A DNA stretch of 64,000 nt from Laetmonice hystrix (Eukaryota), in NCBI GenBank assembly GCA_965235115.1, contig OZ249436.1:32552001-32616000 (forward strand). The letters run 5' to 3'. Numbering within the stretch: position 1 is the first letter of the stretch; the number at the start of each line of letters is the position of its first letter. The translations under genes and the position numbers were made by a program. Below are positions 1 to 61,700 of the stretch, piece after piece. The notes below the pieces were generated by a model. The model saw only the letters and a program-made list of their open reading frames with translations, made no database searches and was not told where the DNA came from.

Positions 1-1695
1 AGTGTATGGTGGATCACCAGACGAAGTGCCCATTTATCTCCACCTAGATCATGCTGATAGGGGAAAACCTAAGCCTCGACCGTTGCCATATAGAGCCACT
101 CCTGCTTCAACTACCACTTCATCTGAGCAACAGACAGATAATATAGTATCTGGTAGGTAATGTTAATACAGAAGTAAAGTTTTGTAGTCATTTTAACATA
201 TTCTCATCTAAAGTTGTATATCAGTATTTCTTGTGATTTAGTGGAGCTTCAACAGGAACATTGTTCACTTTTATCAGATACATGTATCTTCATTTTGAAA
301 GATTTGGACTCAAGAATTTTTATCTATTTTTGGAGAAACAAGTGAAAACTAAAATCAAGGATGTTCAATGTCATCCATTTTAGAAAATGTGTACATTGCA
401 AATTATTTTGTTTATACATACAGAGATCTATATTTCACATTTTCTGTTTATCATTATATGGATGCTGTAAATATGCGGTCTATTATAGTGATGAGTGTCC
501 ATGAATCCATGGGAGCATCAGCTTAGTTTAATGTAAAAAAAAATCCAAGCACATACTAAAAATATTTGTTGTTTTCTTTTCAGTTGAGCATCTGGAACCT
601 GAGCTGTCAACACCATCTGTAGAGCAATCCACTGTGAGCTCCAAAGCCATCCAAGTCAACATTATAGGTGCCAAATTGCCATTGACCAAAGATGCATCTT
701 GTCAAGCCAATCTGCCTGCTTTAGGTGTACATGTACATGTGATTCGTGATAACGATGCTAAAACAAGATTTTATACTGGTTTCAAAAACTGGGGCACATT
801 CTGGTTAATGTTCTGTACACTTCTGTCTCATCATGGTGCTGACCGCCTTAAATATTGGGATGGTGAAAAAAGATCTCTTGGTGACCCAGTGAACAGAAAG
901 TATACAAATCCCACAATAAAGAAACCGGGAAAACGCAGGACTCTAGCATTGGAAGATGAATTCTTCCTCGTATGGCTTCGTCTTAGACACGACATCCGTC
1001 AAGTAATGCTTGCAGATTTATTTGGTATTTCTCAGAGCAGTGTTAGCCGGATTCTCATTACATGGGTGAATTATCTGTATGATCATTTAAAAGGTCTTAT
1101 AGCTTGGCCAACCCGGGAGCAGATCTTAACAAATCTTCCTCGTCATTTCTCTGCTCGTGTGATGGTGCGCACTATACTGGACGCCACAGAAATATTTTGT
1201 GAGAAACCTTCCAGTCTCGAATCTCAGCAGCTTACGTGGTCCGAATACAAATCTCACAATACTATGAAAATAGTGATTGGAGTCACTCCAAATGGCATGG
1301 TTAAATTTGTTTCTAGGTTGTGGGGCGGGAGAGCTTCTGATAGGCACATCACCGAGTTAGATGGAAATGACCCAGGTATTGGATTTATTCCACGTTTGTC
1401 CCCTGATGATGTTGTAATGGCAGATAAGGGGTTCACCATAGGCGATCTCCTTCCTTATTATGCAGGACTTAACATTCCTCCATTTGTCTCCACACAAAAA
1501 CAGATGACCGGAGAAGAGTTTTTTAAAACACAAGAAATTGCTTCAGCTAGAATTGTTGTGGAGATGAAAATGGAGCAAATAAAGAACTATCGAATTTTGA
1601 GTTCTACATACGAGCTCTCAGAAGCGGCGATTGCAGAGCAGATTGTACTTATTTGTACTGCATGTACAAACTTATTAGATCCACTCCTTGTATAA
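1..1695 (+). CDS. PIF/Harbinger-superfamily (ISL2EU-type) DDE transposase, 5' truncated by window edge; exons <1-152 and 584-1695
   Basis: ORF 634-1695 has an HTH_Tnp_4-like segment (LEDEFFLVWLRLR...LADLFGISQSSVSRI) and DDE_Tnp_4 motifs ILDATE / YKSHNTMK / MADKGF / RIVVE. The GT-AG intron 153-583 joins in phase 1 to an open upstream frame (...DEVPIYL...KPKPRPLPYR), which resembles the end of a THAP domain. Confidence 0.9.
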
Positions 1696-1794
1696 AATCA
1701 TCTGAAATGCCTGTAGCCTGTGTAATACTACTAATAATCTCTTTGTAATCTGTAAATGCTTAAAGTTTCACGGGGTTTCCTTACACAAATTACA

Positions 1795-2158
1795 TTAAGC
1801 GAACACCGAGATTACCCGGTAGATGTACTATTTATTAGATTTCTCCATTTATTTTTAGATAGTTTCCACCCCCCCCCCCCGGGATTTTTAAGTTACTGAG
1901 TTTCGTCTTCACTATTCTAGTTCTTGTTCCAATTCTTTTTCTGCTTCTTCTTGTAATTATTCCTGTAGATAGACTATCGTTTTGTCATGTTCATTTCTGA
2001 GGGCATCGTGATGAAACTGAGTAAATATTGATCATGGACTAAACTGATCAGATGACGTCATGTCACGTAATATCACTGCCTTATGACATGTTAGATGTTT
2101 CTCAGAGGAGGGCTCATTTAGATATCTGTATTGCTTTGCAATAAGAGTTTCTCTAGTT
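1795..2158 (+). mobile_element. Helitron/HINE-like short repeat fragment
   Basis: Ends in a short hairpin TATTGC-TTT-GCAATA followed by CTAGTT. Internal TGACGTCA/TCACGT motifs resemble those of the element at 34022-35513. Confidence 0.35.
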
Positions 2159-2491
2159 ATTAATTACATGTATGATTATTAATATTTATAATTATTTATT
2201 ATGCATTATTATGTACATTGTATTACATATGTTTCATTGTTATTGTTGTACCTGGTTTATTTTACTCTCTATCATAAACCCATACATATAACTGAATGTA
2301 ATTGTTATTAATAAAGACAAGATAAATACAGATTAACAAAAGTATACATGTACTAGTACATTCAAAGAATGTTTATTAATAAATGTACTTGAATAATGGG
2401 TGCGACCTCCAGAAATTGTTCATTATATCCATTGTTCGTTGTAGCCAGGAAAACTTTGAACTGCGACTGTATCACTTTAATCTGAAGTTTG

Positions 2492-4695
2492 TTAGGCATA
2501 CAGCTTTTTCCGACGACATATTCTGTGAGACATGATTTCTGCCACCAAATGCCTGTAAAATTCAGTCAGCTTTGATGACATGGAAGACCACAAACTACAA
2601 TCTAATGTTAAACGCTGCACTGAAATTCCTTTTCTTGTGTACACGATGAAATCACAGTATGCAGCTCCAGTAAGTGCCAACTGACCCATTATCTGGTAAT
2701 AATAGCCGTGGTTGGGCTTTAGTGTGACATCACCAGTATGAGAATCAACCTCACAGCAGAAAGAACCACTTTTACAACAGTCCACAACAGACATATTTCT
2801 CCACAAACAGGTCTTCCGGCCATAGGGACACTTGATCTCGATGATACCTTTTCCACATGTTGGGCAGTCCACCTCTCCATCAACACTGGTTCCTAGGTAT
2901 GGGTAATCTGGGTTCAAATGTAACCCTACTTCCTGGACAGTGACACAAGCTTGGCACTTTCGTTGATGGTGCTCTGCATAAATCCTCCTGCAAAATTTAA
3001 AGAACGTAGATGTTTACTTCAAAAAAAATATACTTTCAGAAATAATTGTAAGAATCTCAGGCCTCCCAGCCCATTCAAAGAAAAATATAGACTATAAAAA
3101 TAGGCCATCGTCACAAAATATAGGTTTTACAGGGTTCAGTGGGAGGCCTGAAATTTGTCTGCACACTCTGACTCAATCTTTACTTTAAATTATATTAATA
3201 TTATGGAAAATGTTTTTATCTTGGACAAGCTGACATTACATCCGGACAAGTAACAGGTGTAGCCCTGCCTGCCAGACAAGTCCCATTTTTCAATGTCCAT
3301 CAAATTCATGTGATGTGGTCAACTAGGTCTACTGCCCAGACAAGTAGAAGTGATTGTCTGGTTGTGCTTGGGGACTAGTAGAGATTTTGGGATTTGGGCC
3401 CCCTGATTATAAAAATGATTTTTCTTGGAAATTTACCTTGCTCTAGATTCATTCCTGCGACCATAGATGATGGCCTTGATTCCCTCGGGTGGAGTAGTGT
3501 AACCTCGCTGGAGTTTCACCAAACTGTCGGGAGCAGTGGCAGGTTTCCTTTTATACACTGCCCCAAAATTAGAAGATGTAATGAGCACAGCTCTAGCAAG
3601 GCACCAATTATTATTGTTGTGTTGACCTGTGGTCGCAGTTTTCAATTTGGAGCACATCTCCTCTGTAATTGATGCATACAGCCCAGTTACAAAAGCGCTT
3701 ATCTGATGTTGAACATCAGAATCTAGTAGATCAGTTTTGTCATGGAAACAAAAGTCAACTTCATAGCTCTTCAAAAAATCACTGATGTCTTCTTTTTTGG
3801 AGCACAAAGTAGAGTAAAGAACACACCCAGGATTGACATTGCCAAGTCCCTTCAACAAGTCACTCAGAAATGCACTAGCGTCTGCACAAGGTCCAGCTTG
3901 GTATACATCAGGATAAGGTTTAATGGGTTGCAAGTCACTTGGGTTTTGATGTTCTGTGTTGAGAAAAGAGATGTCTTCCCAACGCTTTGGTTGTAGAGGT
4001 GATTTCATTGACGGTCTGTTCCATTCACAAGCACTTGACGTACGAGAGGGAGTGGAGATTTTAACAAGCACCAGAAGACTAGCACCGACATGAGCACACA
4101 GACCTGCAGCTCCTGCTTTACAGTCACAGTCACAGTTGACAATATAGCCGGGCCGATATATTGTTATATACTGGGTGTACTGCTGAACTGTCTCCCCCTT
4201 CACTTTTACATTTTGTCTCATTGAAGGTCTACATTTTGACCGAAGATACAGCAAATTACTATTCTGAGAAACGGTATGATACACTATCAATCCAACATGC
4301 TTTTCATTTGCAAGTTTTTTTGCTTTGGAAAGCTGGCGCTGAAAATTTCCAAATTTTCCAGAGTTAGGATTCTTATGGTGTTTGAAGTAAATCTCCACAT
4401 CCTTTTCACTAAGTGATAATGTTGTATCTGTAACATTCTCCCAGCCAGTCAACAAAGACTTGGGTGCTGGATATTCAGTTTCAGGTTTAAGACTACAGTC
4501 ACTGTCTGTTGAATCATACTCATAGTCACTGCTATTTTCATTATGCATAGTTCGCATTATCCTTGCAGCTAAAACTTCTTTGGTCCCACTCTTTGGCTTT
4601 TTCCTTTTGGCCAGCCAATCCGCCATTGACTGCTTGCTCCATTTTAATAGATCCTCATGCGATAAGCTGGTATTTTCCACATCTGATTCATCCAT
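2492..4695 (-). CDS. SAP + SWIM zinc finger + YqaJ (lambda-exonuclease-like) protein, second gene of an ISL2EU-type transposon; exons 4695-3437 and 2987-2492, ~584 aa
   Basis: ORFs 3433-4776 and 2492-2917 are joined in frame by a GT-AG intron 3436-2988 (...YGRRNESRAR|RIYAEHH...VGLHLNPDYPYLGTSVDG...IEIKCPY...YYYQIMGQL...CDF). SAP-like MADWLAKRKKPKSGTKEVLAARI, SWIM CDCKAGAAGLCAHV, and YqaJ ITSSNFG motif are present. Confidence 0.88.
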
Positions 4696-5154
4696 ATTTA
4701 CCTGGTGGGCCCTGCCTTGGCCTAGGCCTATCTGAAATGGATAATGATATTCACTTTCAGTACTAGGCCGTAACACAATTTTTCAAGGCCTGTTATTGTT
4801 AAGCATCTGTTAAAATTTAGGGCATCTTGACTTAAGGTTTGGTAAGAAAGTGTTAAAACCCCGCATGCAAAACATCTATGATCTTCATCTATTCTAGACC
4901 TAACATTCAGCCTTGTATAATTGTAGTCTAATTTAATTAAATTCAGATCTAGATTTCTAAAAAGCCAGGCTAATCACTTCCGTCAGTACAGTGGCACTTC
5001 TTTTTCTTTCTTTTGAAAATGTTTTTAAAGACTATTTCAATTCTTTCGGCACCTGCAAGTTGCCTCTTCATCAGGAATATGGTGCATTAAATTTACAGAT
5101 TGCATCAAAATCGGGGTTTGAAATAATGTGAACTAATGTCTACCAATGATCCAA

Positions 5155-5350: not shown

Positions 5351-6871
5351 GTAACTAGGTAGTAGTAAGTACGCCTAGGCCCTAGCCGTAACTCAGACTC
5401 AGTAACGTTAGAGACAGTAGAGTTAAGTAGAGTCTCAGAGACCATGTTTTTCAAGGGAATCAAGCTTTTTTTTTTGTCAAGTCACTGAACAGAGGTGAAC
5501 ATTGGTCAGGCCTAATTAAACATTACAATATTAGTATACAATGCATTTCGAAGTTGGTAGGCATAATCGGCTAATAGTGTTACAATCATCATATTGGTTA
5601 TACCAAGTTCAACCAAGGTTATGACATGAGTAAGCCACGCGTGTGTCAACACACAAAAGCATACTGTGTGCAGTGTGCTGTACCGTCTGTAGCATGGTAG
5701 ACAGTGTAGACTAGACTAGTTCGCGGATCTCACTAGTCTCAGCCTCTGGCTCTCAACTGAAACGTTGCTCTCGGTCTCATGCATTTTATTCTAGCCTAGA
5801 TCTAGCCTATAAGTAGTAACAGTTCAGTCGGTTATGAGAAGTACCGGTAAATACCTACCTAGTAAGTGTTGTCAGGGCGAGTGCCGAGTCTGTGTTCCCC
5901 ACGCAGCCGGCATGGACTCACGTCACGAGTAAACCGGAACTGTCCAGGACGAATTGTCACGCATGCGCAGTAAACGCGATACGATTGCGGGTAGCGGGAA
6001 TTGGTCCACCCCTCATTTGCATAAATCCAATATGGCCGCCATCTTACCCATGGCGATTCACTTTTGGCATTATCTCCACCCGTAAATTGTCTTTTTTCAT
6101 TATTTAATTTTTTCTAGGAGGTTCTGGGACAAGGTACAAGAAAAAAGAGAGTGATTGGTCGCGCCCTCATTTGCATAACTTAAATATGGCCGCCATCTTA
6201 ACACGAATTTGAGCTATTCTGGCTATATCTCAACGTCAAAATGGAATTTTACTCCTTATAAAGTACTGTTCAGGAGATAAATGACGTACACAATCTTTTT
6301 GCAGTGACACATATTCTTATTGGTCCACCCCTCATTTGCATAAATCCAATATGGCCGCCATCTTACCCATTGTAAGTCACTTTTGGCATTATCTCCAACT
6401 GTAAATTGACTTTTTTTCATTATGTAAATTATTTTTAGGAGGTTCTGGGAATCGGTTCCTAGAAGAAGAAGAGTGATTGGCTCGCTCCCTCATTTGCATA
6501 AATTAAATATAGCGCCATGTTAGCCAGAACTCGAGCTATTCTGGCTATATCTTCACGTCAAAATGAGTTTTACTCATTAAAAAAGCTCATTTGCAATATG
6601 TAGTCTATTTCTTGTGGCAAGAAAGTGAAGTGGTAAGCAATCTCTGTTGATATTGTTGCCCGTGAGGGCTCCCTACATGTTTTGACTGAGCTTAGACTGA
6701 AACAAACACTACAGTGAGGGCTCCCAACATGTACTGCCTGGCCTCATACTCGAGCACACACTACAGTGAGGGCTCACCACATCCACTGACTGATCTTATA
6801 CTCGAGCAAACACTACAGGGACGGTTCCCTCCATGTAATGACTGGCCATTGGCTGCAGCAAACCATACAGT

Positions 6872-8848
6872 CACTGTGACGACACCTACCAGCGTAACTC
6901 GAGTTACCTAGGTTCAACATGGCGGACGTTAATTTCAGCCCATTTTCTCCCTCACGATTGCTTCTCTATTAGCGCATTATATATCTAAATATTTGGTTTG
7001 GGAAGAGTTTATAAACGGTTCATTATGTGTATGGGGTTCCTTCCATGTAATCTTAGTTGCTGAAGGAGAAATCGCGTACTGTTTTGGGGCTAGTACCTGC
7101 GTAACTCATTCTGCGGTACCTGCGTAACTCTAACCCAGTTTTGGGCGGTTACCAGCGTAACTCGGCAAAGTCTATAAATTATAATTATTCATAGTCCATT
7201 ACGATGTACGTCTATGTATTGAAATTAGGTTGCAATTACTACAAAGCGCATGTGTTGAAATGTGGCTGCAGAGTACTATATTTTTTTATTAATGAATGTT
7301 CAAATTTGTTGGGAAAGTACCGGTACATACCGATCCAGTGCATTTATATCATAATGAGAAACAAACAAAGAACAAACGGGAATTCCGAATGTTAACATTT
7401 TAAATTGTAACATTAACCCAGTATGAAGTTATGACAGTGGACTGTAATTTTCATTACTTTCATCTAGGAAGAGGGGCGAGACATGTGAGAGGGAGGATCT
7501 TACCTTACAGTACTAGTACATAGTTTGCCTATGAGATACCACATAAAATAATATTACGGTGGGAGGGGCATGGCAATTAGTCCATGATAAAATTAATGAC
7601 TAATGAGGCATTAATGTCCTCTGATAAACCCCACAGTTTGTCAGTATGGTGCTAGAACCAATATAACAGGACCTGGCAAAAGAACATCTTCAACCTCAAC
7701 AAATAATTTCACTTATACAAGACTTACCCTCTACATTGAATGACTGAAATTTAATTAGCATTATAAATACCGGTACATGATAACAATACAGGAACCTGAG
7801 CTGGAACTCCACTTGGAATGATTAACACAATATGTTAAATGTCCATTTTTAGACAAAATATAAACTGTAGAGCTGCATTGACTAGCACTGGTAATATGGA
7901 TAATATCATTATGAATAAATATACACTACAGGCCCGTAGTCAGCCTTCCAGTTGGGGGGGGGGGGGGGGGGTCTGGACTTTGATGGGCGGATCAAGGTAT
8001 GGTTGGGCAGTCTAGGACAGGGCCGTAGCTAGAAATTTCTGAGTTGGGGGGGGGGCAGTCATGGGTGGATCCAGGAGAAGGCGAAGGCTCCAAGACATGA
8101 GCGGGGGGTCTGGGGGCCCTCCCCCAGAAAAAATTGGAAATTACAGGGCCAAATACGCGTTTTCCTGGCATCTGGGAAATAAATCCAAGGTTTTCCAGAG
8201 CCTATCCAGCACTAAAGGGTGCAACAAAATCTTAGGGATGGGCAACTGGGGAGGGGTCGTCCGACCCCCCCGACCCCCCCTGGCTACGGGCCTGCACTAA
8301 CTAGCTCTTCCTCGATGATGCCCGTCAACAAGGTGGCCGCTTCTTTAACTTCTGAAGTGTCTATCTCGGCATAAAAAATGTCCATGATTATTATAATGCT
8401 TCAAAACATGTCTATGGATCAGTTTGTGCTGGGCACACCCGTCAAAAGTATGGATAGGACAAAAATAAGGGTCCTTATGAACACTCCTGGGTGTAGGCCC
8501 CCTAATTGTCTCCTTGCATCATATTATCTGGGTGTGCACCTTAGTGCATAAACAGAGAGTTACGCAGGTACAAGCCTTCGAGTTACGTTGGTTTGTCTGT
8601 TTCCCTGAGATAGAGTTACGCAGGTACTCGCCCCAAAACAGTACGCGATTTCTCCTTCAGCAACTAAGATTACATGGAAGGAACCCCATACACATAATGA
8701 ACCGTTCATAAACTCTTCCCAAACCAAATATTTAGATATATAATGCGCTAATAGAGAAGCAATCGTGAGGGAGAAAATGGGCTGAAATTAACGTCCGCCA
8801 TGTTGAACCTAGGTAACTCGAGTTACGCTGGTAGGTGTCGTCACAGTG
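6872..8848. mobile_element. Non-autonomous Transib-like DNA transposon (CACTGTG...CACAGTG termini, 236-bp TIRs, 5-bp TSD ACAGT)
   Basis: TIRs 6872-7107 and 8613-8848 differ at 2 positions by my reading. ACAGT flanks both ends (6867-6871, 8849-8853). The paralogous uninterrupted repeat unit at ~9500-9540 has a single ACAGT. Confidence 0.85.
7929..8294. mobile_element. G-tract MITE (hAT-like CAG termini) nested in the Transib-like element
   Basis: TIR CAGGCCCGTAG[T/C]CAG, 14/15 match; flanked by direct repeat CACTA (7924-7928, 8295-8299). Confidence 0.75.
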
Positions 8849-11429
8849 ACAGTGAGGGTTCACTACATGTAGTGAGCGGCGTCATACTCGAGCAAACACT
8901 ACAGTGAGGGCCCCCAACATGGACTGTCTGGCCTTATACTCGAGCAAACACTACAGTGAGGGCTCTGTACATAGATTGACTGAGCTTAGACCGAAGCAAA
9001 CACTACAGTGAGGGCTCTCTACATGTATTGGCTGGCCTTAGACTGGAGCAAACAGTACAGTGAGAGTTCCCAGCATGTACCGTCTGGCCTTACACTCGAG
9101 CAAACAGTACAGTGAGGGCTCTGTACATGGATTGACTGAGCTTAGACTGAAGCAAACACTACATGTGCAGTGAGGGCTCTCTACATGTATTGGCTGGTCT
9201 TAGACTGGAGCAAACACTACACTGATTGCTCCCTACATGTATTGACTGCGCTTGGGCTGGAGCAAACACTACCGTGAGAGCTCCCTCCATATAAAGACTG
9301 GCTTAGCGCTGGGGGAAACAGTACAGTGAGGGCTCCCTACATGTTTTGACTGAGGTTAGACTGAAGCAAACACTAAAGTGAGGGCACCTTATACTCGAGC
9401 AAACACTACAATAACGGGTCACAACATGTACTGACTGGCCTTATACTCGAGCAAACACTACAGGGAGGGTTCCCTCCATGTAATGACTGGCCATGGGCTG
9501 CAGCAAACCGTACAGTGAGGGTTCACTACATGTAGTGAGTGGCGTCATACTCGAACAAACACTACAGTGTGGGCTCCCAACATGGACCGTCTGGCTTTAT
9601 ACTCGAGCAAACACTACAGTGAAAGGTCACCACATCGACTGACTGGCCTTATACTCTAGCAAATACTAGAGTGAGGGTTCTCTACATGTATTGGCTGGCC
9701 TTAGACTGGAGCAAACACTACAGTGAGGGCTCCCTACATGTATTGACTGCCCTAGGCCTGGAGCAAACACTACAGTGAGGGCTCCCAACATGTACCGTCT
9801 GGCCTTATACTCGTACAAACACTACAGTGAGGGGTCACCACATGTACTGACTGGCCTTATACTCGAGCAAAGACTAACAGTGAGCGCAAAAGGCCAAACA
9901 CTGTAGTGTTTGCTCGAGTATAAGGCCAGTCAATACATGTAGGGAGTCCTCACTGTAGCGTTTGCTCCAGCCCAAGCGCAGTCAATACATGTAGGGAGCC
10001 ATCACTCTAGTGTTTGCTCCTGTCTAAACTCAGTCAATCCATGTAGAGTAGTGTTTGCTCGAGTATGACGCCACTCAATACATGTAGGGGGTGTTCACTG
10101 TACTGCTTGCTCCAGCCGAAGGGCAGTCAATACATAGAGGCAGCCCTCACTGTAGTGTTTGCTCCAGCCCAAGGGCAGTCATTACCTGTGGGGAGCCCTC
10201 ACTCTAGTGTTTGTTTCAGTCTAAGTTCAGTCAAAACATGTAGGCTAAGGGAGCCCTCATTGGTAACAATATCAACATAGATTGCTTGCCACTTCACTTT
10301 CTTGCCACAAGAAATAGACTACATATTGCAAATGGGCTTTTTTAAAGAGTAAACTCACTGAAGATTTAGCCAGAATAGCCAGAGTTCTGGCCAACATAGC
10401 GGCTATATTTAATTTATGCAAATGAGGGAGCGAGCCAATCACTCTTTTTCTTCTAGTAACCGATTCCCAGAACCTCCTAAAAAATAATTTACATAATGAA
10501 AAAAGTCAATTTACAGTTGGAGATAATGCCAAAAGTGAATCGCCATGGGTAAGATGGCGGCCATATTGGATTTATGCAAATGAGGGGTGGACCAATTAGA
10601 ATATGTATCACTGCAAAAAGATTGTGTACGTCATTTATCCCCTAAACAGTACTTTATAAAGAGTAAAATTCCATTTTGACGTTGCGATATAGCCAGAATA
10701 GCTCAAATTCGTGTTAAGATGGCGGCCATATTTAATTTATGCAAACGAGGGCGCGGCCAATCATTCTTTTTTTTTCTTGTGACCGATTCCTCTGTCCCAG
10801 AACCTCCTAAGAAAAAAATTATACACTGAAAAATGTCAATTTACGGGTGGAGATAATGCCAAAAGTGAATCGCCATGGGTAAGCTAGATTTCAGATGGTT
10901 GCTGGCGGCCATCTTGGATTTGAGGGTGAAAATGGCCGCCAAATGTCAAAATAACCCTGCAGATGGATTTCTGACCCCCAAATTAGTTGAAATCCACCTA
11001 TCACACGTATTTCTAAGTGAATTGGTTCAAAAGTTAGAAATCGACTTCCGTCGGGTGCTAATTAGCATAATTTATTCAAATTAGGGGCCTCTATGCATAG
11101 AGACAACTTGTCTCTTTGGATATTTTTTTTCCTTTTGCCCTAAGGACCAATCATGCCAAGTTAGACATTTGCACTATAAAATGCAGTGTTCACCCCTTTT
11201 TGAGCTCTTAGCATGTCTACTATATGCTACAGTCAGTAGACTAGTACGGAATGATAACATTGATTAGGCCATCGGCCGACCATCGCACTAGTTGCAGCCT
11301 CGAAGGACTGCAGGCGGTGGTTTGTTGCCGTAGAAGAGAGCTCCTTCAGTGAGATGGACATGCCCGGCCGTCGACTGTCTGCTGCAGCTGTCTGCTGATG
11401 GCTGAGCTTTTCCCCCGCGTCTTCTCCTT

Positions 11430-11960
11430 TTTGCCACCCTTGACCAACGAACGTAACACAACACAGGGATCACCACAGTGAGGAATGACAGCTCATAGTT
11501 TCCCAGTTTCTGAGCATCGCCAGATCTGGGCGTGCTTCCTGGATGATGATAGGCCTACAGCACGGCCACCCAAGAAACTGCCGGTCCTCTCAGCTTGACG
11601 ACTTTGTCCCCTGTGGCCCTGCAACTCTTCTGGTTCTGGCTCCAGCTCGAGAAGCTCTTGAGTTTGAGCTTTTTCATCGGGTCTCATATTGACTGTGGTG
11701 ATGAGATGAGAAGTCTGTCTGTGAAAAAGGTCTTTCTCCAGGTACTGAATGATGTCGGGTTTCACTGATTCTGAGATGAAGTTGAAGAGACTAGATGCTC
11801 TTCAGTGGAGCTGCGTTTTGTAGGGATTGCCCAAGCCGTGCATGCACCTTGATGCCGGACTTGAGCTTGAGAGTATTCTTGCTTGAGCGCACTGAGACGT
11901 TGCCAGCCAGTTCGTATAGTGATCGGCTGTCATGGGGCTTGAAGACTGACAATGGGCTGT
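11430..11960 (-). pseudogene. Degraded transposase fragment, possibly Academ-type
   Basis: Frameshifted minus-strand pieces (KLKSGIKVH..GNPY, SLFNFISESVKPDIIQYLE, ATGDKVVKLR/EDRQFLG/IIIQEARPDL/LGNYELS) recall the GNPF and 'KLxEDRxLFxR...YELS' motifs of large marine-invertebrate transposon proteins. Recognised from memory only. Confidence 0.4.
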
Positions 11961-16679: not shown

Positions 16680-19600
16680 TTACAATGTACATGTTAAAAT
16701 ATCTTCTGTGCCTTCGCAAATCTCACACTTAACGGCACAGCACCAATGAAATTTACAGTTGCATTTTCTGCGGACTCGTCTAACGGTCTTTTTCACCTTA
16801 AAACCACAAGAGTAGCACAAGAGTTTACAGCTGCGTCTTTCCGACCGACTGTCTTTGCCGGGCTTGCCCGGATTGACGCAGCGCCGTCCCAGAGTCCCCG
16901 GCGTGCCCAATGTCAGGTTCTTTTTACAATAATCCGGTGACTTTTCGAGATACACCAGTTCCGTTTTACGGATGGTCGGAATGTCTTTAGTGTCCGCCGC
17001 CTTGTGCAGGATGCCGTTCTGAAAGTCGGCCTTGACCGCTCGGGTGTACTTGCGGCGAAGATGGATGCCGACGTTGCGCAGGTCGGCCAGTTGTCGCCAG
17101 CAGGTCTTGGTAGTACAGGCTCCGGAAACGCCATGACACTTGCAGGTCATGCGCATCGTACGCCTCACCGACTGCAACACCCAAATGGTTACTTCATTGA
17201 GAACACGCAGATCTAAGTTAAGCGTGAGAGGGAGGTTTAACAGGAACCATTTGCATCCATTGGCATTGTTGAAAGAAAGACCCAAATCTTGTAGGATTGG
17301 TACATTGTATCTCCATAAAGAGCTAGCTAGCTTCTTAAACACATTGTGTGATTACTGAAGAACAGGTTCAACATCTGCTTATATTTTCTTGCTGCTGCAT
17401 TTCTGTCCATTAAAGGGGTTTCTAGCAGTCTGGTACCATGGCGCGTCCATGTCGACAATATTTTTAATTAATTTAAGCGTTTACCTATTTGGCTAGAGAC
17501 GAGAGCACGCGAATCAAATCATGCCCTTATTTGGATTATGGCGGGAGGGCGGGCGGAGCAGTGCGAGGCAACGCATGCGCCCAATCCCGTTGCTTAGTAA
17601 CGACCGCCCTAACAATGCTAACGCGGGCATGGCGGTCGTTCTACGTTCTCAGTCCATTGAGATGAGAAATATGGGATGTATCGCCTCATTATGGCTCAGA
17701 ATCAACAACAGACCTAGCACAACAATGTTATGGATACGACAGAATGTTTTATCACTCAAGATTTGTTTTCGGTAATGAAGCGACTCTGAGACAAATTATA
17801 ATGTACCTTCGTATCTACTATCATTAGGGCATCAAGTTAGGCGTTGATTTATTTTATTTTTTTATTAGTTTTCGGACAGGTTTATGGATAGATCTATAGC
17901 TTTGCCCTCCCTTTATAGATCTAACCAGTTTCATGAAACCAGCCACAGCCGATGACGCGCTTTTGACCCCATTGCACGTTTTGCTAACGCGTTGAGCTAT
18001 TGCCCATCACATGTAGGCAGAGCGTACAGAGTGGACGTGCTTTTTGCCGAATGGCATATACATCGATTTAGCTACAGACTCAGTAGACGTGAGATGTGAA
18101 ATAAACAAAGAGACATCCCCACCCGCCTGCCTGCCTCGTTATTGTGGAGGTTGACGGTTGCCCTGGCGTCTTTGCCCGTCTCCAGTGCGTCGACAAATAG
18201 TTTAGAGATGCGCTCACCAAAACGAATGTTGTCGCTGCATCCTCCCCAGTTCCAGTTGAGCCCACCTGGCCATCATGAAGAAATAGAAGGATATCATATA
18301 TACGGCTCTTATCTAGATCAATAGGTCCGCTGTACTTTAGTAGAGTTCAAGATAGGCCTATACAGGGTGTCTAAAAAAGTAAGCCATGTTCGAAGGGTCA
18401 TTATGGCCAAACTATATTTCAGTTCACATTTATTATGGTTTTAGCATAACGTAGAGGTTTTGAGCTTTCCATTGATAACTTGGTTATCTTCCTCCAGGCA
18501 TTTATCACAAGCAAGATTTCAAGACACTGGTGCTCAGTGATAAAATGACTGGCAGAAGATAACTGAGTAATCATTGGAAAGCTCACAACCGCCATACTTT
18601 ATGCTAAAACCTTACCACAAATCATAATAAATGTGAATTGAAATAGAGTTTTTTATAGGGAGGTTTTTTTTATCCACCCGATATAATGACCCTTTGAACA
18701 TGGATTACCTATTTTGAGACACCCTGTACATTGAACCAACTGCACATGCACCTTGTCTAATGATCCAAGTCATCTCAGAATAAACTGATGATCTACGGAG
18801 AATAGTTCGGGCCTACTTTAAATTTCTTAACATTGGGACAAAGTTCCAAGAAAGTTTTTAATCATAGTCTTATACTATCAAGACCAGCAAACAAAATTAA
18901 TGACTATTACGGAGTACATGCATAACGTTGTAATCTAGTTGGGTAGGGTAAGACCAGCTAAAAAATATTTTTTAATAATAATTTTAAAATGACATCCCCA
19001 TCTGTCAGGCATAGCAGGAGAGTCACTGCCATCTTTAAAAACCCCACTCTACGTGTATATACAAACCCTGGTATTGTTGTGGACACAGGGTGGCGTTTCT
19101 ATTGCATGCATGGGATTGAAAGATAATGTAGGTCTATGATATACACAGCGAGTCAAAAAAGCGATACACTCAAAAATAGGCTGAGGAATCAAAGATTTGG
19201 CAAAAAAAGGACAATGTAGTAATTGTTACAGAAAGAGTAACTCTTTTGCTTCAACTTGGTCGTTGCCTATATGCGACCAATAATAAAGAAATAATGACCA
19301 TTTTTCAAAGACTCCAAAAATACCACTTGCGCCAAGTGAGACTAGGCTCAATTCAAACAAAGCATGATGGAAGCAATGGAAAGCAATGAAACGGACCATT
19401 GCCATGGTCATGGATTGCATAATCAGTTCAGATCGGTGCATGGATCTTTATAGGCCTGCTGAAACATGGTGCGTCCACAGTTCACGCCCCCATGCGTTTG
19501 GGCAAATTCACTGATCAATGGTCCGTTTCACTGCTTTTCATTGCTTCCATCATGCTTTGTTTTAATTGAACAGGCCTATAGTCTCACTTGGCGCAAGTGG

Positions 19601-29748: not shown

Positions 29749-30855
29749 CTAATCCCACTTCAAAACCAATTCGTCTCCTGCCATCTTAAGTGTGCTATTG
29801 ATACATTCCCGTTGTAGGGTTTTACAGAGCCAAAGAACATCGTCCCTGGATGCCTTGTTCACCCGAAGTTTCTTGGTTTGTGTTGGTACCAGAGTAACAT
29901 CCACCAAATGACCATCACTGGGATCGAGGCTGACAAAGTACATGAGGGCAAGATCTCCCCGATACTCCTCTTCACCACCAATACCCTCATAATCGTTCAG
30001 AAAGTCTCCACATCCGTACATAATCAGCTTGCCGTTATATATTTCTAACGCTTTAGCATGATGGGAGGAGTGGCCATAAACAACGTCAACGTGAGCTTTG
30101 TTGATGAGGGCCTGGGCGAATTTCCTAAACATTGGGTCTATTTCGTAGCCCCAGTTACTGCCCCAGTGGATTGAATACACGACCACGTCGTTGTGTTTCC
30201 TCTCGGCCTTGAGGCGTTCTTTGAGCTGACTGACCACCTTGCTGGAGAGTTCCAACACGTTGATACCACACCTATCAGATGCTGCCTGCCATTCATGTGG
30301 AACGCCGCTCGAGGTATGACCCCCCGCGAAGAGGAGCACGCGACCCTTTCCCGCCACTGGTAAAATGGTCGCGGAGCAGGCGACGTCACGACTCCGTCCG
30401 GCGCCTGCGTATTTGATATCGGCTTTCTCTAGCGTTTCTAATGTCTCCAAGAGTCCCTCAAAACCCCAATCTGCCGTGTGGTTGTTAGCCAGAACGCAAC
30501 AACTTATCTTCGCGGCTTTCAGAACTTCCGCGTTTCCCGGGTGCATCCGATAGTGAATGCCTTTCATTGGCCAGGCATTGTTACACGTAGTCACAGCATT
30601 CTCTAGATTTATAATACGCAAATCAGGGTTCTTTTCGGCAAGGATCTGTAGAGCATCACCCCACACATAGTCAACTGGCCTTTCCTCCTTAGGAGGTAAC
30701 TGCCCGTTCTGAATCACTGCAAGTCGCACATAGTCATGAGCATTCAGACCGTTTCCTTCGTGCAGCCTAGGATCGCATGAATAGTTGTTGATCATGTCGA
30801 TTCCACGAGCCATCATTACATCTCCACAGAGGAACAAAGTGATCGGTTCAGCCAT
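29749..30855 (-). CDS. CapA/PGA_cap family (poly-gamma-glutamate synthesis accessory, metallophosphoesterase fold) protein, 368 aa, intronless CDS
   Basis: Motifs GDVM, INLE, LANNHxxDWG, SIHWG, GHSSHH and YGCGDFLNDYEGI. A polypyrimidine tract plus AG acceptor lies 7 nt upstream of the ATG (30863-30864), implying a 5'-UTR intron. Confidence 0.92.
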   Translation of the reverse strand: MAEPITLFLCGDVMMARGIDMINNYSCDPRLHEGNGLNAHDYVRLAVIQNGQLPPKEERPVDYVWGDALQILAEKNPDLRIINLENAVTTCNNAWPMKGIHYRMHPGNAEVLKAAKISCCVLANNHTADWGFEGLLETLETLEKADIKYAGAGRSRDVACSATILPVAGKGRVLLFAGGHTSSGVPHEWQAASDRCGINVLELSSKVVSQLKERLKAERKHNDVVVYSIHWGSNWGYEIDPMFRKFAQALINKAHVDVVYGHSSHHAKALEIYNGKLIMYGCGDFLNDYEGIGGEEEYRGDLALMYFVSLDPSDGHLVDVTLVPTQTKKLRVNKASRDDVLWLCKTLQRECINSTLKMAGDELVLKWD

Positions 30856-32920
30856 GTTAACCCTAGAAAAGAAATAAAGAAATACATAAAAGTAATTATA
30901 TCCATATTCTTAGTTTTGATGCCCGCAATATAAAATTGCACCAGACATTTTGTCAGGCAATGATATGTCTTCTTTACCAAAAATATTGTATACATTTTGT
31001 ATGCAAATTACTCCTAGGCCGAAGTTCAGCTACTATCCCCAGGTTTCTATTTCATACGCCGCAAAAACTGCCAACTTTATCTCAGTGTTATATTTACTTT
31101 GTGGGAACACAGGGTAGGTGGAAAGAAGAAAATTTTCGGATCGAGGTGGATAAATATGGGTCACCCTGTAAATATAGACGTACATGTCCTCCACAGTCTG
31201 GCAAAGCAGGAGAAAAGGCTGCAGTGTACCGTATAGCAAGTAGGCCTAATGGCAGTGGGAAACGGAGACAAGTTGAACGTTGTCGATATGTTGCTTCTTA
31301 AAATGCCAATATTTTAAATGTCAACTTGTAAGGTAGAGAGAACATAACTCCCTGCTAACTTCATTAATATATTGATGGACATACCTGGGGGATTTATACC
31401 ATTTTTTCAATACCTTTGAACACTTTCACTCTGGCTTTGAAAAAGGGTGAAGGGGACATTCCTTCTCATCTATGCCTATGCACGAGAGGGTCAGTGTGAA
31501 AGATATTTAGTACGGTACTGTAGTGTAAATAGGCCTACTGCAACAGTGCAATACTGCCAGCAATAGGCAAGCTTAGCAAGCTCTACCTCCATGAACTTGC
31601 CAAGGGCAAGGACTGGCTGAGGCTTACTACGTAAGCTATAGACTAGGGTGGCTCCGAGTCTGTTTTACCAGCATTTCATACTGAAATCTTCCATGTAGGC
31701 CTATATAATATTATTGGCTATGTATGAAAATATCTTCCTAAAATGTCATATTTGGCGTCTGGAAACCCTTTTAATTTACCACTGATTTTTGTTTTGCTCC
31801 AAAAATGGCCTGCGCCTCCCGCGGTTTATAGTACACGAACGCGACTTAACCCAGTACATGGAGGACTGCGGTAGTCTCAGCCCCTGAAGCAGTGTCCAAG
31901 CAACTTAAATTAGGCAAAGCCAAGTGCAAGGCGACAGAATCCACTCCGAGACCGAGTCCGAGCCTTCACCATGTTTCAAGCCAAGGCCATAAATTGGAGG
32001 TACCCGTAAAAATGTAGGGATTCTTTGTCGGGGCTAGACTTCGCTTTCGGATCACGCACCGTAAATTCGTAATTGTGCCACTGTAAGAACGAAGTGCCGT
32101 AAGTAATAACACCTGTGCTGTGGTAATAACCTCCGAAACTGGTGAAAGGCCCGTTGGCCGCTGGCGTTGACGTTGTTCACTGAACTTGTTGACTTCGCTT
32201 GTCCCGACAAAACTCTACACTCACTGAGTGTACACTGCCACTGCCAACCAAATCTCAAAAGTCTTCCACTGAGGAGACTCCTCATTACAAAGACATGTCT
32301 GTTTGGCTTAAACTTAAAGTATAATACGGCCTGTCACTCATGTTTTGTTTAAAGAATAACCCGAAAAGTTTATGACCATCATTTTGTTCACAACCTTGAC
32401 CTTCCCGTCTGAAAATGGCAAAAATAACAGCGACTAATTGGTTAGAGATACATGAATCCGTTCACGAAAACTACGACGACTCCAGCACGTGGCGCCGTCT
32501 TGCGGTTCGTAGAAGACTGATTGTTTGCTTCAAACCCTTGGCCAACAGTGAGTTCTCTGGAAAGAGATCAAGCCTACACTACAAAAAAAGACTGGAATAT
32601 CTCTTCTGTCTACCACTTAAGGATCATAATTAAATGCACCATAACTTACATAAGTGCATAACTTGCAAAAGATGGTACAACACGGCCAAAGATACAGCTT
32701 AAAGTAGGGTTAATAAAAAACCAAAGGAGTAGGCCTAGTTCACACGGTAGTGGCGCCACCATAAAATTGCACTAGTGCGCCATCTCGTGTCGTAGGTAGG
32801 GAAATATCAACAGTTCCCGGGAAATTGAGAGAAAGTCAAAACTTAAGAATAGACCAGCCTAGTTAGGGATGCGATTACTTCATGTTGTAGTTCAGCCGAA
32901 GTGGAAAGAAACTGTCTGCG

Positions 32921-58700: not shown

Positions 58701-61700
58701 TTGTGTTTTTGTAGGTATGGTTTCGGAAGGGAGTGAACTGTTGTAAGGCAGCAGTAGATACTGATGCAGCTACTGGTACAGGCTGGGTCGCCATGATACA
58801 TAGGATGAGGCTGGTGACAATCGGACCGGGAGATCAGGTAGGACATGAATAGTTGATCATGTATTGTTCTTACCCTGTCATTTGTTAAAGTCTTGTAAGT
58901 GCTGATCCTAAATGGTTGTAGTTTGTGTGAACCCTGCCAATGGCTTTGTAGAGCTATAATTAAAGCCTTGATTACGTGTACATTTTTCAAGCTCTGTCTC
59001 AAAGAGGCCATCTGGATAAGCTTCATGAAGATTGATCTGATTTTTGATGAAATAAAGGATGTTGTTCTTGAAGACTTACGATACTCATGGTCTTTGAATA
59101 AATTATTTTATGATCTACATTAGGTTTGGGGAATAGACTATGATGACCGACAGATCTATTTTCGTACGGGGATCTCTACAGAAGAGCAGACTGGCAAAAA
59201 CTGGCGCCATGTTGAGCTCCCTTACTGCTGCTACTATGGTGCCAGTACAAGGAAACGGACTCGATCCACATCATCAAGGACTTCCCGAAATAGCTTGGTG
59301 TCTCCATCAGCTCAGGATGCACCAGCAGATGGAGGTGTTAGAATGTCAGAAGGGGTTGGTGGTGACCCTGTTACTGCTGACCAAAAAAGTGGTCAGGACC
59401 CCCAGGAGGAGGAGAAGGAGGACTACGCTCCGCCAGGTTTGGATGTGAGAGTAGTGCCTGATGAGACGATAGGGAATGGGTTTCATGGTTGTTTGGAGGC
59501 GAGCACTGCTGTCTATGGGTACACGTGGGGGACAGCGCTGGAATCTGCTGACCCTGCTGAGAGCAGGGACGCTCAGCCTGGCATTGATGTAGATGTAGAT
59601 GAGGGGAAGAATGTAGGGGTGGAGCATGGAGCCTCTGCGGAGCGGCCTACTTCTGGGCTGGACCTGGGGGCTACTGCAACCACAGTAGAGGGCTCTGAGG
59701 TGGCTGGTGGCGGTGGAGAGAAAACTCCGACCAACATGGACTCGCCTACTGCACAATACGAGGCTGTCATGGCTGCCATGGCTGCTCTGAAAAAATCAAA
59801 GAGCTTACAGCAGATTAAGTCACTCATCAAGAAAAAAACAGACCAGATTGTTGAACGTATCTCACCAGAGAATCATTCACCATCCGGTGCCTTGCCACGT
59901 GACATCACTGTTACATTCAAAATGGGGTCAGAAAATGTGAATCTCATGGAATCCAGTATGACGTCACTCCCACGTGGGATCATGGAAACCAGTATTACGT
60001 CCTTGCCGCGGAGTGCAAGTGACCTTAGCACCGAGAGCTCCTTTGCATGGTCTGAGTTTGGGTCAGTTTGTGGCTGGGACCCCACAGGACGGGGAATGGC
60101 TGACACGGATGACCTTGAGGAAGAGGACCTGGATGATGATAACGAAGAAAGCCTTGAAGTGTTTGACGAGGGAGACATCCACTGGGTGTGGGTGTCACCA
60201 GCTGCCTGCCCCATCAAGGACGAGGCCGAGGTGCGACACTGGCTGGCTGCGGAAGCAGGGTCCAACAGAAGCAGCTCCATATTCTACCAACGACAGTTCA
60301 CATCCGGCACGTGGCGTAATACCATACTGGCCTCCCTGAGGGGACGTAACAAAACACAGCATGACCCCTTCAGGCATTACCCACTAGCCATTGAGAGGGT
60401 TAGTTATGAGTCTCTTTAATTCACATTGCTAGTGTCATATCGTCATGTTACTTTAGAAATTTCATTATTATGTAGCACTTTCCAATCATTAGGATAGAAT
60501 CAATGTTAGTGTTACCCTCATAATAAAAAAATGATGTAAGAAGTCCAGATGTATAGTCTCTGATATAAGTGTTTGGAGTATTTTGATGTTGTTGACTTGT
60601 TATGTAATACAGGTAAACAGATCTAGAAGTGTATAGTGAAGAACCATGTTGATTAGTGTGTTGATTGGTGTCGCAGGCCTGCTGGAGTAAGAAGGGCCAG
60701 CTGTTATGGTGGCAGGATGTGACACGAGGCTCCAGATGGGTCTCGTGTCAGGTGGAGCTGACACAAGATGTCGACGGCACAATGGACGGGAGCTTTGTAC
60801 TTCAGTATGAGGTGCACGCACAGCAAAAAGTGAGAGTTCAACTTTTACCTCCATCTTCTAGTTGATTTATGGCAAGACGTAGTTTTTAAAAGGCTATGAT
60901 CTTTACTGAAGGCTTCTGATTGGCTGTTTACATGTGACCAGCTGTTTGAACATGATGTTTGAACATGCTGTTTGAACATGCTGTATGAAAGTTATGTATA
61001 TTAGTTAATGTCAAAGATGCTGGCACTGAAGTAATAGCCTTAAAAAGTCAGAATGTTATATGTGTGCGTGTTTTTCAGTTCAAATAGATCAGTTTGCATG
61101 ATGTGCTGTGCATGTTTTTCCGTTCCAACAGATCAGCAAGAGAAACATGCGGTACATATTTTTCATGCTGTGTATGTTTTTCAGTTCCAACAGATCAGCC
61201 TGAGTGATGTGCTGTGCGTGTGCTCCATCGCAGACCCAGGTCCTCTGCCAGCCTTTGTCATCCACACCACATCAAGAATCACGACAGTACCACGTGCACA
61301 GCCAGTCAAGATGGTTGCCCACCGCGAGGAAGAAATGGAGGACTGGGTACGTAACTGAAAACCCAGCAAGATTTTATTCCATGTTTCTATAAGTTGAGCT
61401 TCGTGTGAAACCAGAGGGGATTAAAATAATAGCAAACTTGCCAACCCTTCTGCATTCTATGGAATCTTTCCGCATTTGAATGTTGTATTCCGGACTTTGT
61501 ATTCTTCTCAAAATATTACGGAATCATGCAATTTACCAAAAAGTAAACATTCACCCTCAGTGGACGCTAAATTTCCCGTTCAAAGTACATATTCACCAGC
61601 AATATGTCACCACCATTCGTGTCATCTTGGGGGAACATGTAAGTTTGGTCTGGCAAGGAGAGAGAAAAAGAGTGTGAAAGATCCAGATTGACAGACGAAT

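What the first reader, a model, noticed from the sequence alone, without database searches (positions are those of the whole stretch)
6867..8853. Recent Transib-like insertion with RSS-heptamer-like ends and a built-in empty-site control
Seen: termini 5'-CACTGTG on both strands (the + strand right end reads CACAGTG), near-perfect 236-bp TIRs, and a 5-bp TSD ACAGT. The paralogous repeat unit at ~9500-9540 (GCAAACCGTACAGTGAGGGTTCACTAC) shows the pre-insertion state. Known: CAC-initiated heptamer-like ends with 5-bp TSDs characterise Transib and RAG-like (ProtoRAG) transposons, relatives of the V(D)J recombinase. Here the TIRs are long and symmetrical, with no nonamer or 12/23 asymmetry. Inference: an active or recently active Transib/RAG1-like transposase exists elsewhere in this genome.
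Basis: partly seen in the sequence, partly recalled or inferred. Interest (0 to 1): 0.7.

Follow-up and report, generated by a model that had tools for sequence, protein, structure and literature searches.

The report
Non-coding Transib-type transposon with long ends
This is one young, protein-less copy of a multi-copy cut-and-paste transposon in a marine invertebrate; its ends and 5-base target duplication best fit the Transib/RAG-like group, but the enzyme that moves it was not found, so it stays an ordinary new family with an unproven link to RAG.

Summary
Observation confirmed. The element is 6872-8848 (1,977 bp), with 236-bp TIRs (234/236 identical) starting CACTGTG and ACAGT on both sides; removing it restores the 52-bp repeat unit. 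It is non-coding. Contigs of one public sample show a young multi-copy family (11 differences in 1,269 letters), a form without the nested 366-bp insert and a form of about 780 bp.

Because ACAGT is near-palindromic, the empty site fits CAC + 5-bp TSD, TCAC + 3-bp or GTCAC + 1-bp equally well. The TIR lacks the Transib nonamer tract and the RAG-like AAA at positions 8-10. It carries a 13-bp motif four times per end. The nested CAGG-ended insert also has a 5-bp TSD, so 5 bp alone is not diagnostic. No transposase was found, and no genome was held.

Best reading: a non-autonomous Transib/RAG-like element (0.6). Side result: one run shows T>C clusters confined to both TIR arms, probably A-to-I editing of a fold-back transcript. 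The scan's notes showed no look-alike.

The parts
6867..6871 (+). Left target-site duplication ACAGT (5-bp parse)
6872..7107 (+). Left TIR, 236 bp, starts CACTGTG; holds the ACCWGCGTAACTC motif with its 9-bp core at TIR positions 21 and 228
7118..7163 (+). Two further copies of the subterminal motif beyond the TIR (core at positions 251 and 284 from the left end)
7108..8612 (.). Non-coding interior; longest stop-to-stop frame overlapping the element is 85 aa
   Evidence: 17 of the 33 frames scanned against Pfam, none reached a curated cut-off
7172..8405 (.). Segment replaced by 37 other letters in a shorter family member (about 780 bp if its ends are the same)
   Evidence: joint 7171->8406 in X1 and X3; length
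7924..8299 (+). Nested 366-bp MITE (7929-8294), ends CAGGCCCGTAG / CTACGGGCCTG, flanked by the 5-bp duplication CACTA; probably hAT5-like (inference)
   Evidence: joint 7923->8295 (skip 371) in 3 of 4 runs; the only parse that fits both TIR and TSD
8557..8588 (-). Two copies of the subterminal motif beyond the right TIR (core at positions 284 and 261 from the right end, the latter with one mismatch)
8613..8848 (-). Right TIR, 236 bp
8849..8853 (+). Right target-site duplication ACAGT
9465..9562 (+). Paralogous empty stretch of the 52-bp array (ACAGT once, at 9512-9516)
6000..10883 (.). Host structure: fold-back repeat with arms 6043-6660 and 10262-10883 (91% identical over 631 columns) enclosing 52-bp arrays at 6662-6871, 8849-9884 and, inverted, 9899-10244

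Best explanation
A non-autonomous cut-and-paste DNA transposon of the Transib/RAG-like branch of the CMCT clade. SHOWN: it encodes nothing, has CAC-starting 236-bp TIRs, sits in one unit of a 52-bp array, and belongs to a young multi-copy family with at least three structural forms. INFERRED: a DDE transposase encoded elsewhere binds the ends (the terminal heptamer, and probably the 13-bp motif repeated at the same distances from both ends). It cuts flush at CAC by the nick-and-hairpin route known for Transib, ProtoRAG and RAG, and joins the ends to a target with a 5-base stagger, which gave the ACAGT duplication. A hAT5-like MITE later jumped into this lineage. INFERRED side effect: read-through transcripts fold back on the TIRs into about 235 bp of dsRNA, which ADAR hyper-edits.
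For: With a CAC terminus only a 5-bp TSD fits; 2, 3 and 4 do not. Published rule: Transib 5 bp versus CMC 2-4 bp, Chapaev 3-4 bp with CAC ends, RAG-like CAC ends with 5-bp TSDs. The heptamer CACTGTG has the CAC-W-R/T-TG form of the seven published non-autonomous Transib families seen and differs at one position from ProtoRAG CACTATG. Published Transib targets are themselves near-palindromic (CASTG, CAWTG, CARTG), so a 2-base extension of the inverted repeat into the TSD is not surprising. Non-autonomous RAG-like elements of 0.7-2.6 kb are documented. Echinoderm and hemichordate RAG-like TIRs share little but CAC. Young family: 11 differences in 1,269 letters against five X1 contigs.
Against: The site parses equally as TCAC + CAG. 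A random 5-mer of this window gives a 2-base extension in 7% of cases, and the one foreign flank seen again has T before CAC. Position 8 is A, whereas all 7 published Transib families seen have G there and an A-tract near positions 31-37; this TIR has no such tract. There is no AAA at positions 8-10 as in protostome RAG-like TIRs. The TSD is 40% GC and ends in T, while Transib and RAG prefer GC-rich targets. Long symmetric TIRs with repeated subterminal motifs resemble CACTA or hAT ends more (recalled, from no call). TSD and TIR are described as labile traits that should not override transposase evidence. No transposase is linked to the element.
Confidence: 0.6

Rival explanations
1. A CMC-type element (EnSpm/Chapaev/Mirage side of the CMCT clade). 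Either its true terminus is TCAC with a 3-bp TSD (CAG), or it is a CMC lineage with CAC ends and an atypical 5-bp stagger. The repeated subterminal motif would be the binding site of a CACTA-like transposase or helper protein.
For: The TCAC + 3-bp parse fits the empty site exactly. X4 record 26 aligns from 6871, one base outside CAC. The 9-bp core occurs 7 times exactly within 300 bp of the ends and 0 times in the other 62,023 bases; three copies lie at the same distance (21, 228, 284) from both ends, the last outside the TIR. The CMCT clade as a whole makes 2-5 bp TSDs.
Against: Described CMC elements start CAC, not TCAC, and CAC with 2-4 bp does not fit this site. A T before CAC arises by chance about one time in four, and more often with an A...T target preference.
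Confidence: 0.25
2. A hAT5-type or other unclassified element with a 5-bp TSD whose CAC start is coincidental.
For: hAT5 families make 5-bp TSDs. The nested insert shows that a CAG-ended family with a 5-bp duplication exists in this genome. Subterminal repeats are common in hAT (recalled).
Against: hAT ends follow YARNG (lizard families), and CACTG has C at position 3. The nested insert shares no sequence with the TIRs (self-BLAST).
Confidence: 0.1
3. For the X4 pattern only: the T>C changes come from a diverged genomic copy rather than from RNA editing.
For: X4's library is not on record. Contigs drop rare variants, so a single diverged copy could be hidden in X1-X3. Each arm rests on one contig (depth 22-25).
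Against: The changes are T>C on the + strand in both arms, at non-mirrored TIR positions; a diverged TIR subfamily would give mirrored changes. 19 of 51 T positions in the TIR parts are changed against 1 of 203 outside. 0 of 19 have a 5' G against 9 of 32 unchanged sites (p = 0.018; 1 of 19 and p = 0.069 with the window's own letter at 8629).
Confidence: 0.2

Closest known systems
Non-autonomous Transib families (TransibN1-3_AG, TransibN1_DP, TransibN1_DM, Hopper, TransibN1_SP; PMC1131882, Fig. S4)
   Same: CAC-starting heptamer ending in TG; no ORF; 5-bp TSD (under the CAC parse); several are symmetric.
   Different: All seven have G at position 8 and an A-tract near positions 31-37; the paper's consensus TIR is 38 bp with a nonamer. 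Here position 8 is A, there is no A-tract, the TIR is 236 bp and a 13-bp motif is repeated.
Non-autonomous RAG-like (ProtoRAG/RAGL-B) elements of lancelets and pearl oyster (PMC7204232 Fig. S2b; PMC8289069)
   Same: CAC start, heptamer one base from CACTATG, 5-bp TSD, size around 2 kb, no coding capacity.
   Different: ProtoRAG TIRs are short and asymmetric (27/31 spacer); protostome RAG-like TIRs have AAA at positions 8-10. Neither is seen here, and no RAG1L/RAG2L remnant was detected.
Chapaev / Chapaev3 and EnSpm-CACTA (PMC4079192, PMC3014272, PMC4158355, PMC12730594)
   Same: CAC...GTG ends; same transposase clade as Transib.
   Different: Their TSDs are 2-4 bp (TWA for Chapaev3), which do not fit a CAC terminus at this site.
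hAT5 (cited in PMC12730594)
   Same: 5-bp TSD; a likely home for the nested CAGG-ended MITE.
   Different: The CACTG terminus of the main element does not follow the hAT YARNG pattern.

Membership tests
Transib | Transib/RAG1-core DDE transposase in the element or its autonomous partner | not testable with these tools
   The element is non-coding; no genome held; the collection scans gave only chance hits or nothing.
Transib | 5'-CAC terminus | tested here: inconclusive
   CAC, TCAC and GTCAC all fit this one site. One foreign flank aligns from the T, which argues against GTCAC but does not separate CAC from TCAC.
Transib | 5-bp TSD | tested here: inconclusive
   Met under the CAC parse; only 1 insertion with both flanks was available.
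Transib | Heptamer like CACAATG / CACAGTG / CACTATG | tested here: met
   CACTGTG is 6/7 to CACAGTG and to CACTATG.
Transib (canonical, as in PMC1131882) | A-rich nonamer after a 22-23 bp spacer | tested here: not met
   The 9-mers at spacers 12, 22 and 23 are AGCGTAACT, GAGTTACCT and AGTTACCTA (criterion).
Transib / RAG | GC-rich target preference | tested here: inconclusive
   One TSD only, 2 of 5 GC (criterion).
RAG-like (RAGL/ProtoRAG) | RAG1L and RAG2L gene pair between the TIRs in autonomous copies | not testable with these tools
   No autonomous copy reachable.
RAG-like (RAGL-B) | A-rich TR2 next to the heptamer (AAA at positions 8-10 in the protostome consensus) | tested here: not met
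   Positions 8-10 read ACG (criterion).
RAG-like (ProtoRAG, RAGL-A) | Asymmetric 5' and 3' TIRs | tested here: not met
   The arms are identical for the first 141 bp (criterion). Symmetric RAG-like TIRs are reported in some species.
Chapaev / EnSpm-CACTA | CAC terminus with a 2-4 bp TSD | tested here: not met
   For the CAC parse only lengths 0 and 5 fit, and the empty site needs 5.
hAT5 | YARNG terminus with a 5-bp TSD | tested here: not met
   The main element starts CACTG (pattern). The nested insert starts CAGGC, 4 of 5 positions, with a 5-bp TSD.

The most novel reading that the evidence does not exclude
The element is the passenger of an undescribed, recently active branch of the CMCT clade that cuts and inserts with Transib/RAG geometry (flush CAC end, 5-bp stagger) but recognises its ends through long symmetric TIRs and a spaced array of 13-bp subterminal sites, instead of a nonamer or TR2. 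That would be a third mode of end recognition among RAG relatives, and its transposase would sit between CACTA/Chapaev and Transib/RAG1.
Probability: 0.15. Interest if true: 0.6.

Novelty: new member of a known kind. Interest (0 to 1): 0.3.

Why it matters
As it stands it is one more young non-autonomous TIR family, useful mainly as bait: its TIR would pull out the autonomous partner from the assembly in one search. If that partner is Transib- or RAG1-like, it would add an active RAG relative with unusually long, motif-bearing ends, which bears on how end recognition (nonamer, TR2 or subterminal arrays) evolved before V(D)J recombination. The locus also teaches caution: a near-palindromic target makes TSD length undecidable from one empty site, and a second, CAG-ended family with a 5-bp duplication sits inside the element. 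The probable A-to-I editing confined to the TIR arms suggests how the host meets fold-back transcripts of the family; editing of inverted repeats in transposons is known in general.

Tried and rejected
Whole genome: none held, so no genome-wide TSD table and no partner search.

TIR pattern scans: 1 hit in metagenome contigs and 2 in viral contigs, all limited to 19-20 matching letters in unrelated DNA, so chance; 0 in prokaryote genomes; 0 in a second viral scan. No second copy in the window.

Sequencing runs: no RNA holder listed; this blank is no evidence on expression. Read-laying was swamped by the 52-bp array: it showed 40 of 209 difference rows, 15 of 266 joints, 24 of 1,307 loose ends and 32 of 47,019 pieces, so flanks of other copies were mostly not shown. 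The empty-site joint has depths of 2,953 and 10,409 and probably comes from paralogous array units, so I rejected it as evidence of polymorphism. I rejected TIR identity as a clock, because DNA-transposon TIRs are not reset at insertion (own knowledge). Depth was not converted to copy number.

Coding remnants: 17 of 33 frames against Pfam gave four weak matches, none at a curated cut-off; one frame against PDB sequences gave none. Rfam over 5500-11500: none. The transposase at 532-1695 is DDE_Tnp_4 with a YqaJ partner, an ISL2EU/PHIS-type layout (label recalled), and was rejected as the partner.

Other searches: a homolog search with 59124-60416 found nothing. A full-text search for the terminal 9-mer with 'transposon' listed 15 of 16 papers, none relevant by title or abstract start. 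Supplement searches in PMC7204232 and PMC9435367 showed no matching terminus in the passages returned (only some of the hits were displayed, for example 30 of 69). The Lanisha lead gave no TSD information. bioRxiv supplements (Table S2 of the Nozomi preprint, the RAGL-A TIR files) and figure images of TIR alignments could not be seen and may bear on the TIR comparison.
Full report
OBSERVATION. The element spans 6872-8848 (1,977 bp) between two copies of ACAGT. The first 236 bases and the reverse complement of the last 236 differ at two positions, 142 and 220. Removing the element and one ACAGT gives a stretch that aligns without gaps to 9465-9562, with 5 mismatches in 98 columns. There is no second copy in the window. 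The insertion lies in a 52-bp tandem array enclosed by a larger fold-back whose arms, 6043-6660 and 10262-10883, are 91% identical. The host is a marine invertebrate by inference. The Wnt8 exon at 16680-17351 is 57% identical to a nemertean and 54% to a hemichordate protein, with no close relative.

THE ENDS ARE AMBIGUOUS. Because ACAGT is a palindrome except for its middle base, the perfect inverted repeat runs two bases past CAC. Three parses fit both the TIR and the empty site: CAC + 5 bp, TCAC + 3 bp (CAG) and GTCAC + 1 bp. With CAC, duplications of 2, 3 or 4 bp do not fit. A random 5-mer of the window gives a one-base extension in 26% and a two-base extension in 7% of cases. Published Transib targets, however, are themselves near-palindromic. 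The only foreign flank displayed, a 151-letter X4 contig, aligns from 6871 after 24 unaligned letters. That argues against GTCAC and is a weak point for TCAC. The 'built-in control' therefore fixes the total length removed (1,982) but not the TSD length.

ANATOMY. The interior has no frame longer than 85 aa; 17 of 33 frames gave no Pfam match at a curated cut-off. The core GCGTAACTC, within ACCWGCGTAACTC, occurs at positions 21, 228, 251 and 284 from the left end and at 21, 228, 261 (one mismatch) and 284 from the right end. It is absent from the remaining 62,023 bases. Its position is kept at 284 on both sides although the TIR stops at 236, which suggests spaced protein-binding sites (inference). 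A 366-bp insert at 7929-8294 with CAGGCCCGTAG ends is flanked by CACTA; only the 5-bp parse fits both its TIR and its TSD.

FAMILY. Five public runs hold the element or part of it; four come from one sample, which may be the source of the assembly and so is not independent. Laid contigs show the joined empty site (skip 1,982) in 2 of 4 runs, the element without the nested insert (skip 371) in 3 of 4, and a form in which 7172-8405 is replaced by 37 letters in 2 of 4 (about 780 bp). In X1 the TIR contig has depth 4,107 and the interior 762-1,077, against 14-23 for two listed contigs of the nested insert. The tool warns that depth is no copy number, so I take it only as 'multi-copy'. Five X1 contigs differ from the window copy at 11 of 1,269 letters, which fits a young family. 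Both arms of the window copy share two letters (TIR positions 58 and 62) that differ from the main contig, so the copy belongs to a sub-lineage or its arms were homogenised (inference). Polymorphism is not shown, since the empty joint can come from the very abundant array.

CLASSIFICATION. In favour of Transib/RAG-like: a CAC start with a 5-bp TSD is the published mark of Transib and RAG-like elements, and CMC elements have 2-4 bp. CACTGTG is one base from both CACAGTG and ProtoRAG's CACTATG. Non-autonomous RAG-like elements of similar size exist. Against: the seven published non-autonomous Transib families seen all have G at position 8 and an A-tract near positions 31-37; this TIR has neither, and no nonamer at 12, 22 or 23 bp. 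It lacks the AAA of protostome RAG-like TIRs and the ProtoRAG asymmetry. These absences do not exclude the branch, since echinoderm and hemichordate RAG-like TIRs share little but CAC. A 5-bp TSD is not unique: hAT5 has it, and the CMCT clade spans 2-5 bp. A 2026 preprint reports Transib transposases with apparent 3-bp and TA duplications and says TSD and TIR should not override transposase evidence. I therefore file it as working most likely like a Transib/RAG-like passenger (0.6), not as a proven member. It fails the canonical Transib nonamer test and the RAGL-B TR2 test.

MECHANISM. Shown: non-coding, TIR-bounded, target duplicated, multi-copy, little diverged. Inferred: mobilisation in trans by a DDE transposase. 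For the Transib/RAG branch this means nicking and hairpin formation, then strand transfer with a 5-bp stagger. The subterminal motifs are probably binding sites.

SIDE RESULT: PROBABLE RNA EDITING. X4 is much smaller than X1-X3 (58 against 517-599 million letters) and its library is not on record. Its contigs carry 19 T>C changes inside the two TIR arms: 8 at 7048-7094 and 11 at 8628-8737. That is 19 of 51 T positions against 1 of 203 outside the arms (p = 4e-14). The count uses the listed rows only, 32 of the 40 differences on these three contigs, and one T>C shared by all runs, at 7612, was set aside. At 14 of the 19 places at least one other run has depth and none shows the change. For the other 5 the mirrored positions in the X1 TIR contig are unchanged (my reading of record 8). 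The changes are not mirrored between arms, so they read as A>G on one strand. 0 of 19 have a 5' G against 9 of 32 unchanged sites (p = 0.018, or 1 of 19 and p = 0.069 with the window's letter at 8629). 3' G is 7 of 19 against 5 of 32 (p = 0.10, not significant). This matches the ADAR neighbour preference. The minus strand folds with 235 of 236 TIR pairs. I put A-to-I editing of a fold-back transcript at about 0.8. The X4 contigs share several letters with the family contigs rather than the window, so another copy is probably the source.

VERDICT. A real, young, non-autonomous TIR family; most likely Transib/RAG-like, with a CMC-type rival at 0.25. New member of a known kind; interest 0.3. I did not find this terminus in print, within the limits; Repbase and Dfam could not be searched.

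PAPERS SEEN. PMC1131882: passages, sections 8 and 9, supplement passages (Fig. S4). PMC7204232: passages, supplement 2 in full, supplement 9 passages. PMC9435367: first part of the text, supplement passages. Passages only: bioRxiv 10.64898/2026.08.26.747230, 10.1101/100735, 10.1101/2023.08.20.553239, PMC12730594, PMC4455052, PMC8289069, PMC3014272, PMC8355894, PMC4158355, PMC4079192, PMC5800060. PMC6004678: the term search returned no passage. Statements on subterminal repeats in CACTA and hAT elements, and the ISL2EU label, are recalled and come from no call.

Noticed in passing
window 7048-7094 and 8628-8737 (run X4): Nineteen T>C changes confined to the two TIR arms in one run only, with 5' G depleted on the minus strand: probable ADAR hyper-editing of a fold-back transcript of this family.
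   Followed up: partly
window 7924-8299: Nested 366-bp MITE with CAGGCCCGTAG ends and a 5-bp duplication (CACTA), absent from other family members; it holds a second similar CAGGGCCGTAG start near 8018. Candidate hAT5-like family.
   Followed up: partly
window 6000-10883: Fold-back repeat of about 4.9 kb: arms of about 620 bp (91% identical) built from sub-repeats of about 160 and 320 bp rich in ATTTGCATA and ATGGCCGCCAT, enclosing 52-bp arrays in opposite orientations. The right arm stops at 10883 against other sequence; no TSD was determined. The 52-bp unit is extremely abundant in the public contigs.
   Followed up: partly
window 6662-10244: The 52-bp unit contains ACAGTG, whose reverse complement CACTGT equals the first six bases of the element's TIR (16 + 4 occurrences in 1,639 bases); the insertion hit exactly this word. 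Possibly a target preference, possibly chance.
   Followed up: no
window 532-4782: Convergent ORFs of another DNA transposon: a DDE_Tnp_4 + HTH_Tnp_4 transposase (+, 532-1695) and a YqaJ/alkaline-exonuclease protein in two frames (-, 3433-4782 and 2492-3013); ISL2EU/PHIS-like layout (label recalled).
   Followed up: partly
window 29749-30909 (-): Single-frame 386-aa ORF with a full PGA_cap (CapA) domain (E = 9e-70) in an animal genome.
   Followed up: no
window 16680-17351 (-): Last exon of a Wnt8-like gene.
   Followed up: partly
window 59124-60419 (+): 431-aa frame starting with a Hyd_WA propeller repeat, probably a large exon of a TECPR1-like gene (label recalled); the homolog search found nothing.
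   Followed up: partly
window 6929, 6933, 8787, 8791: Both TIR arms of this copy share two letters that differ from the main family contig, hinting at a sub-lineage or at homogenisation between the arms.
   Followed up: partly
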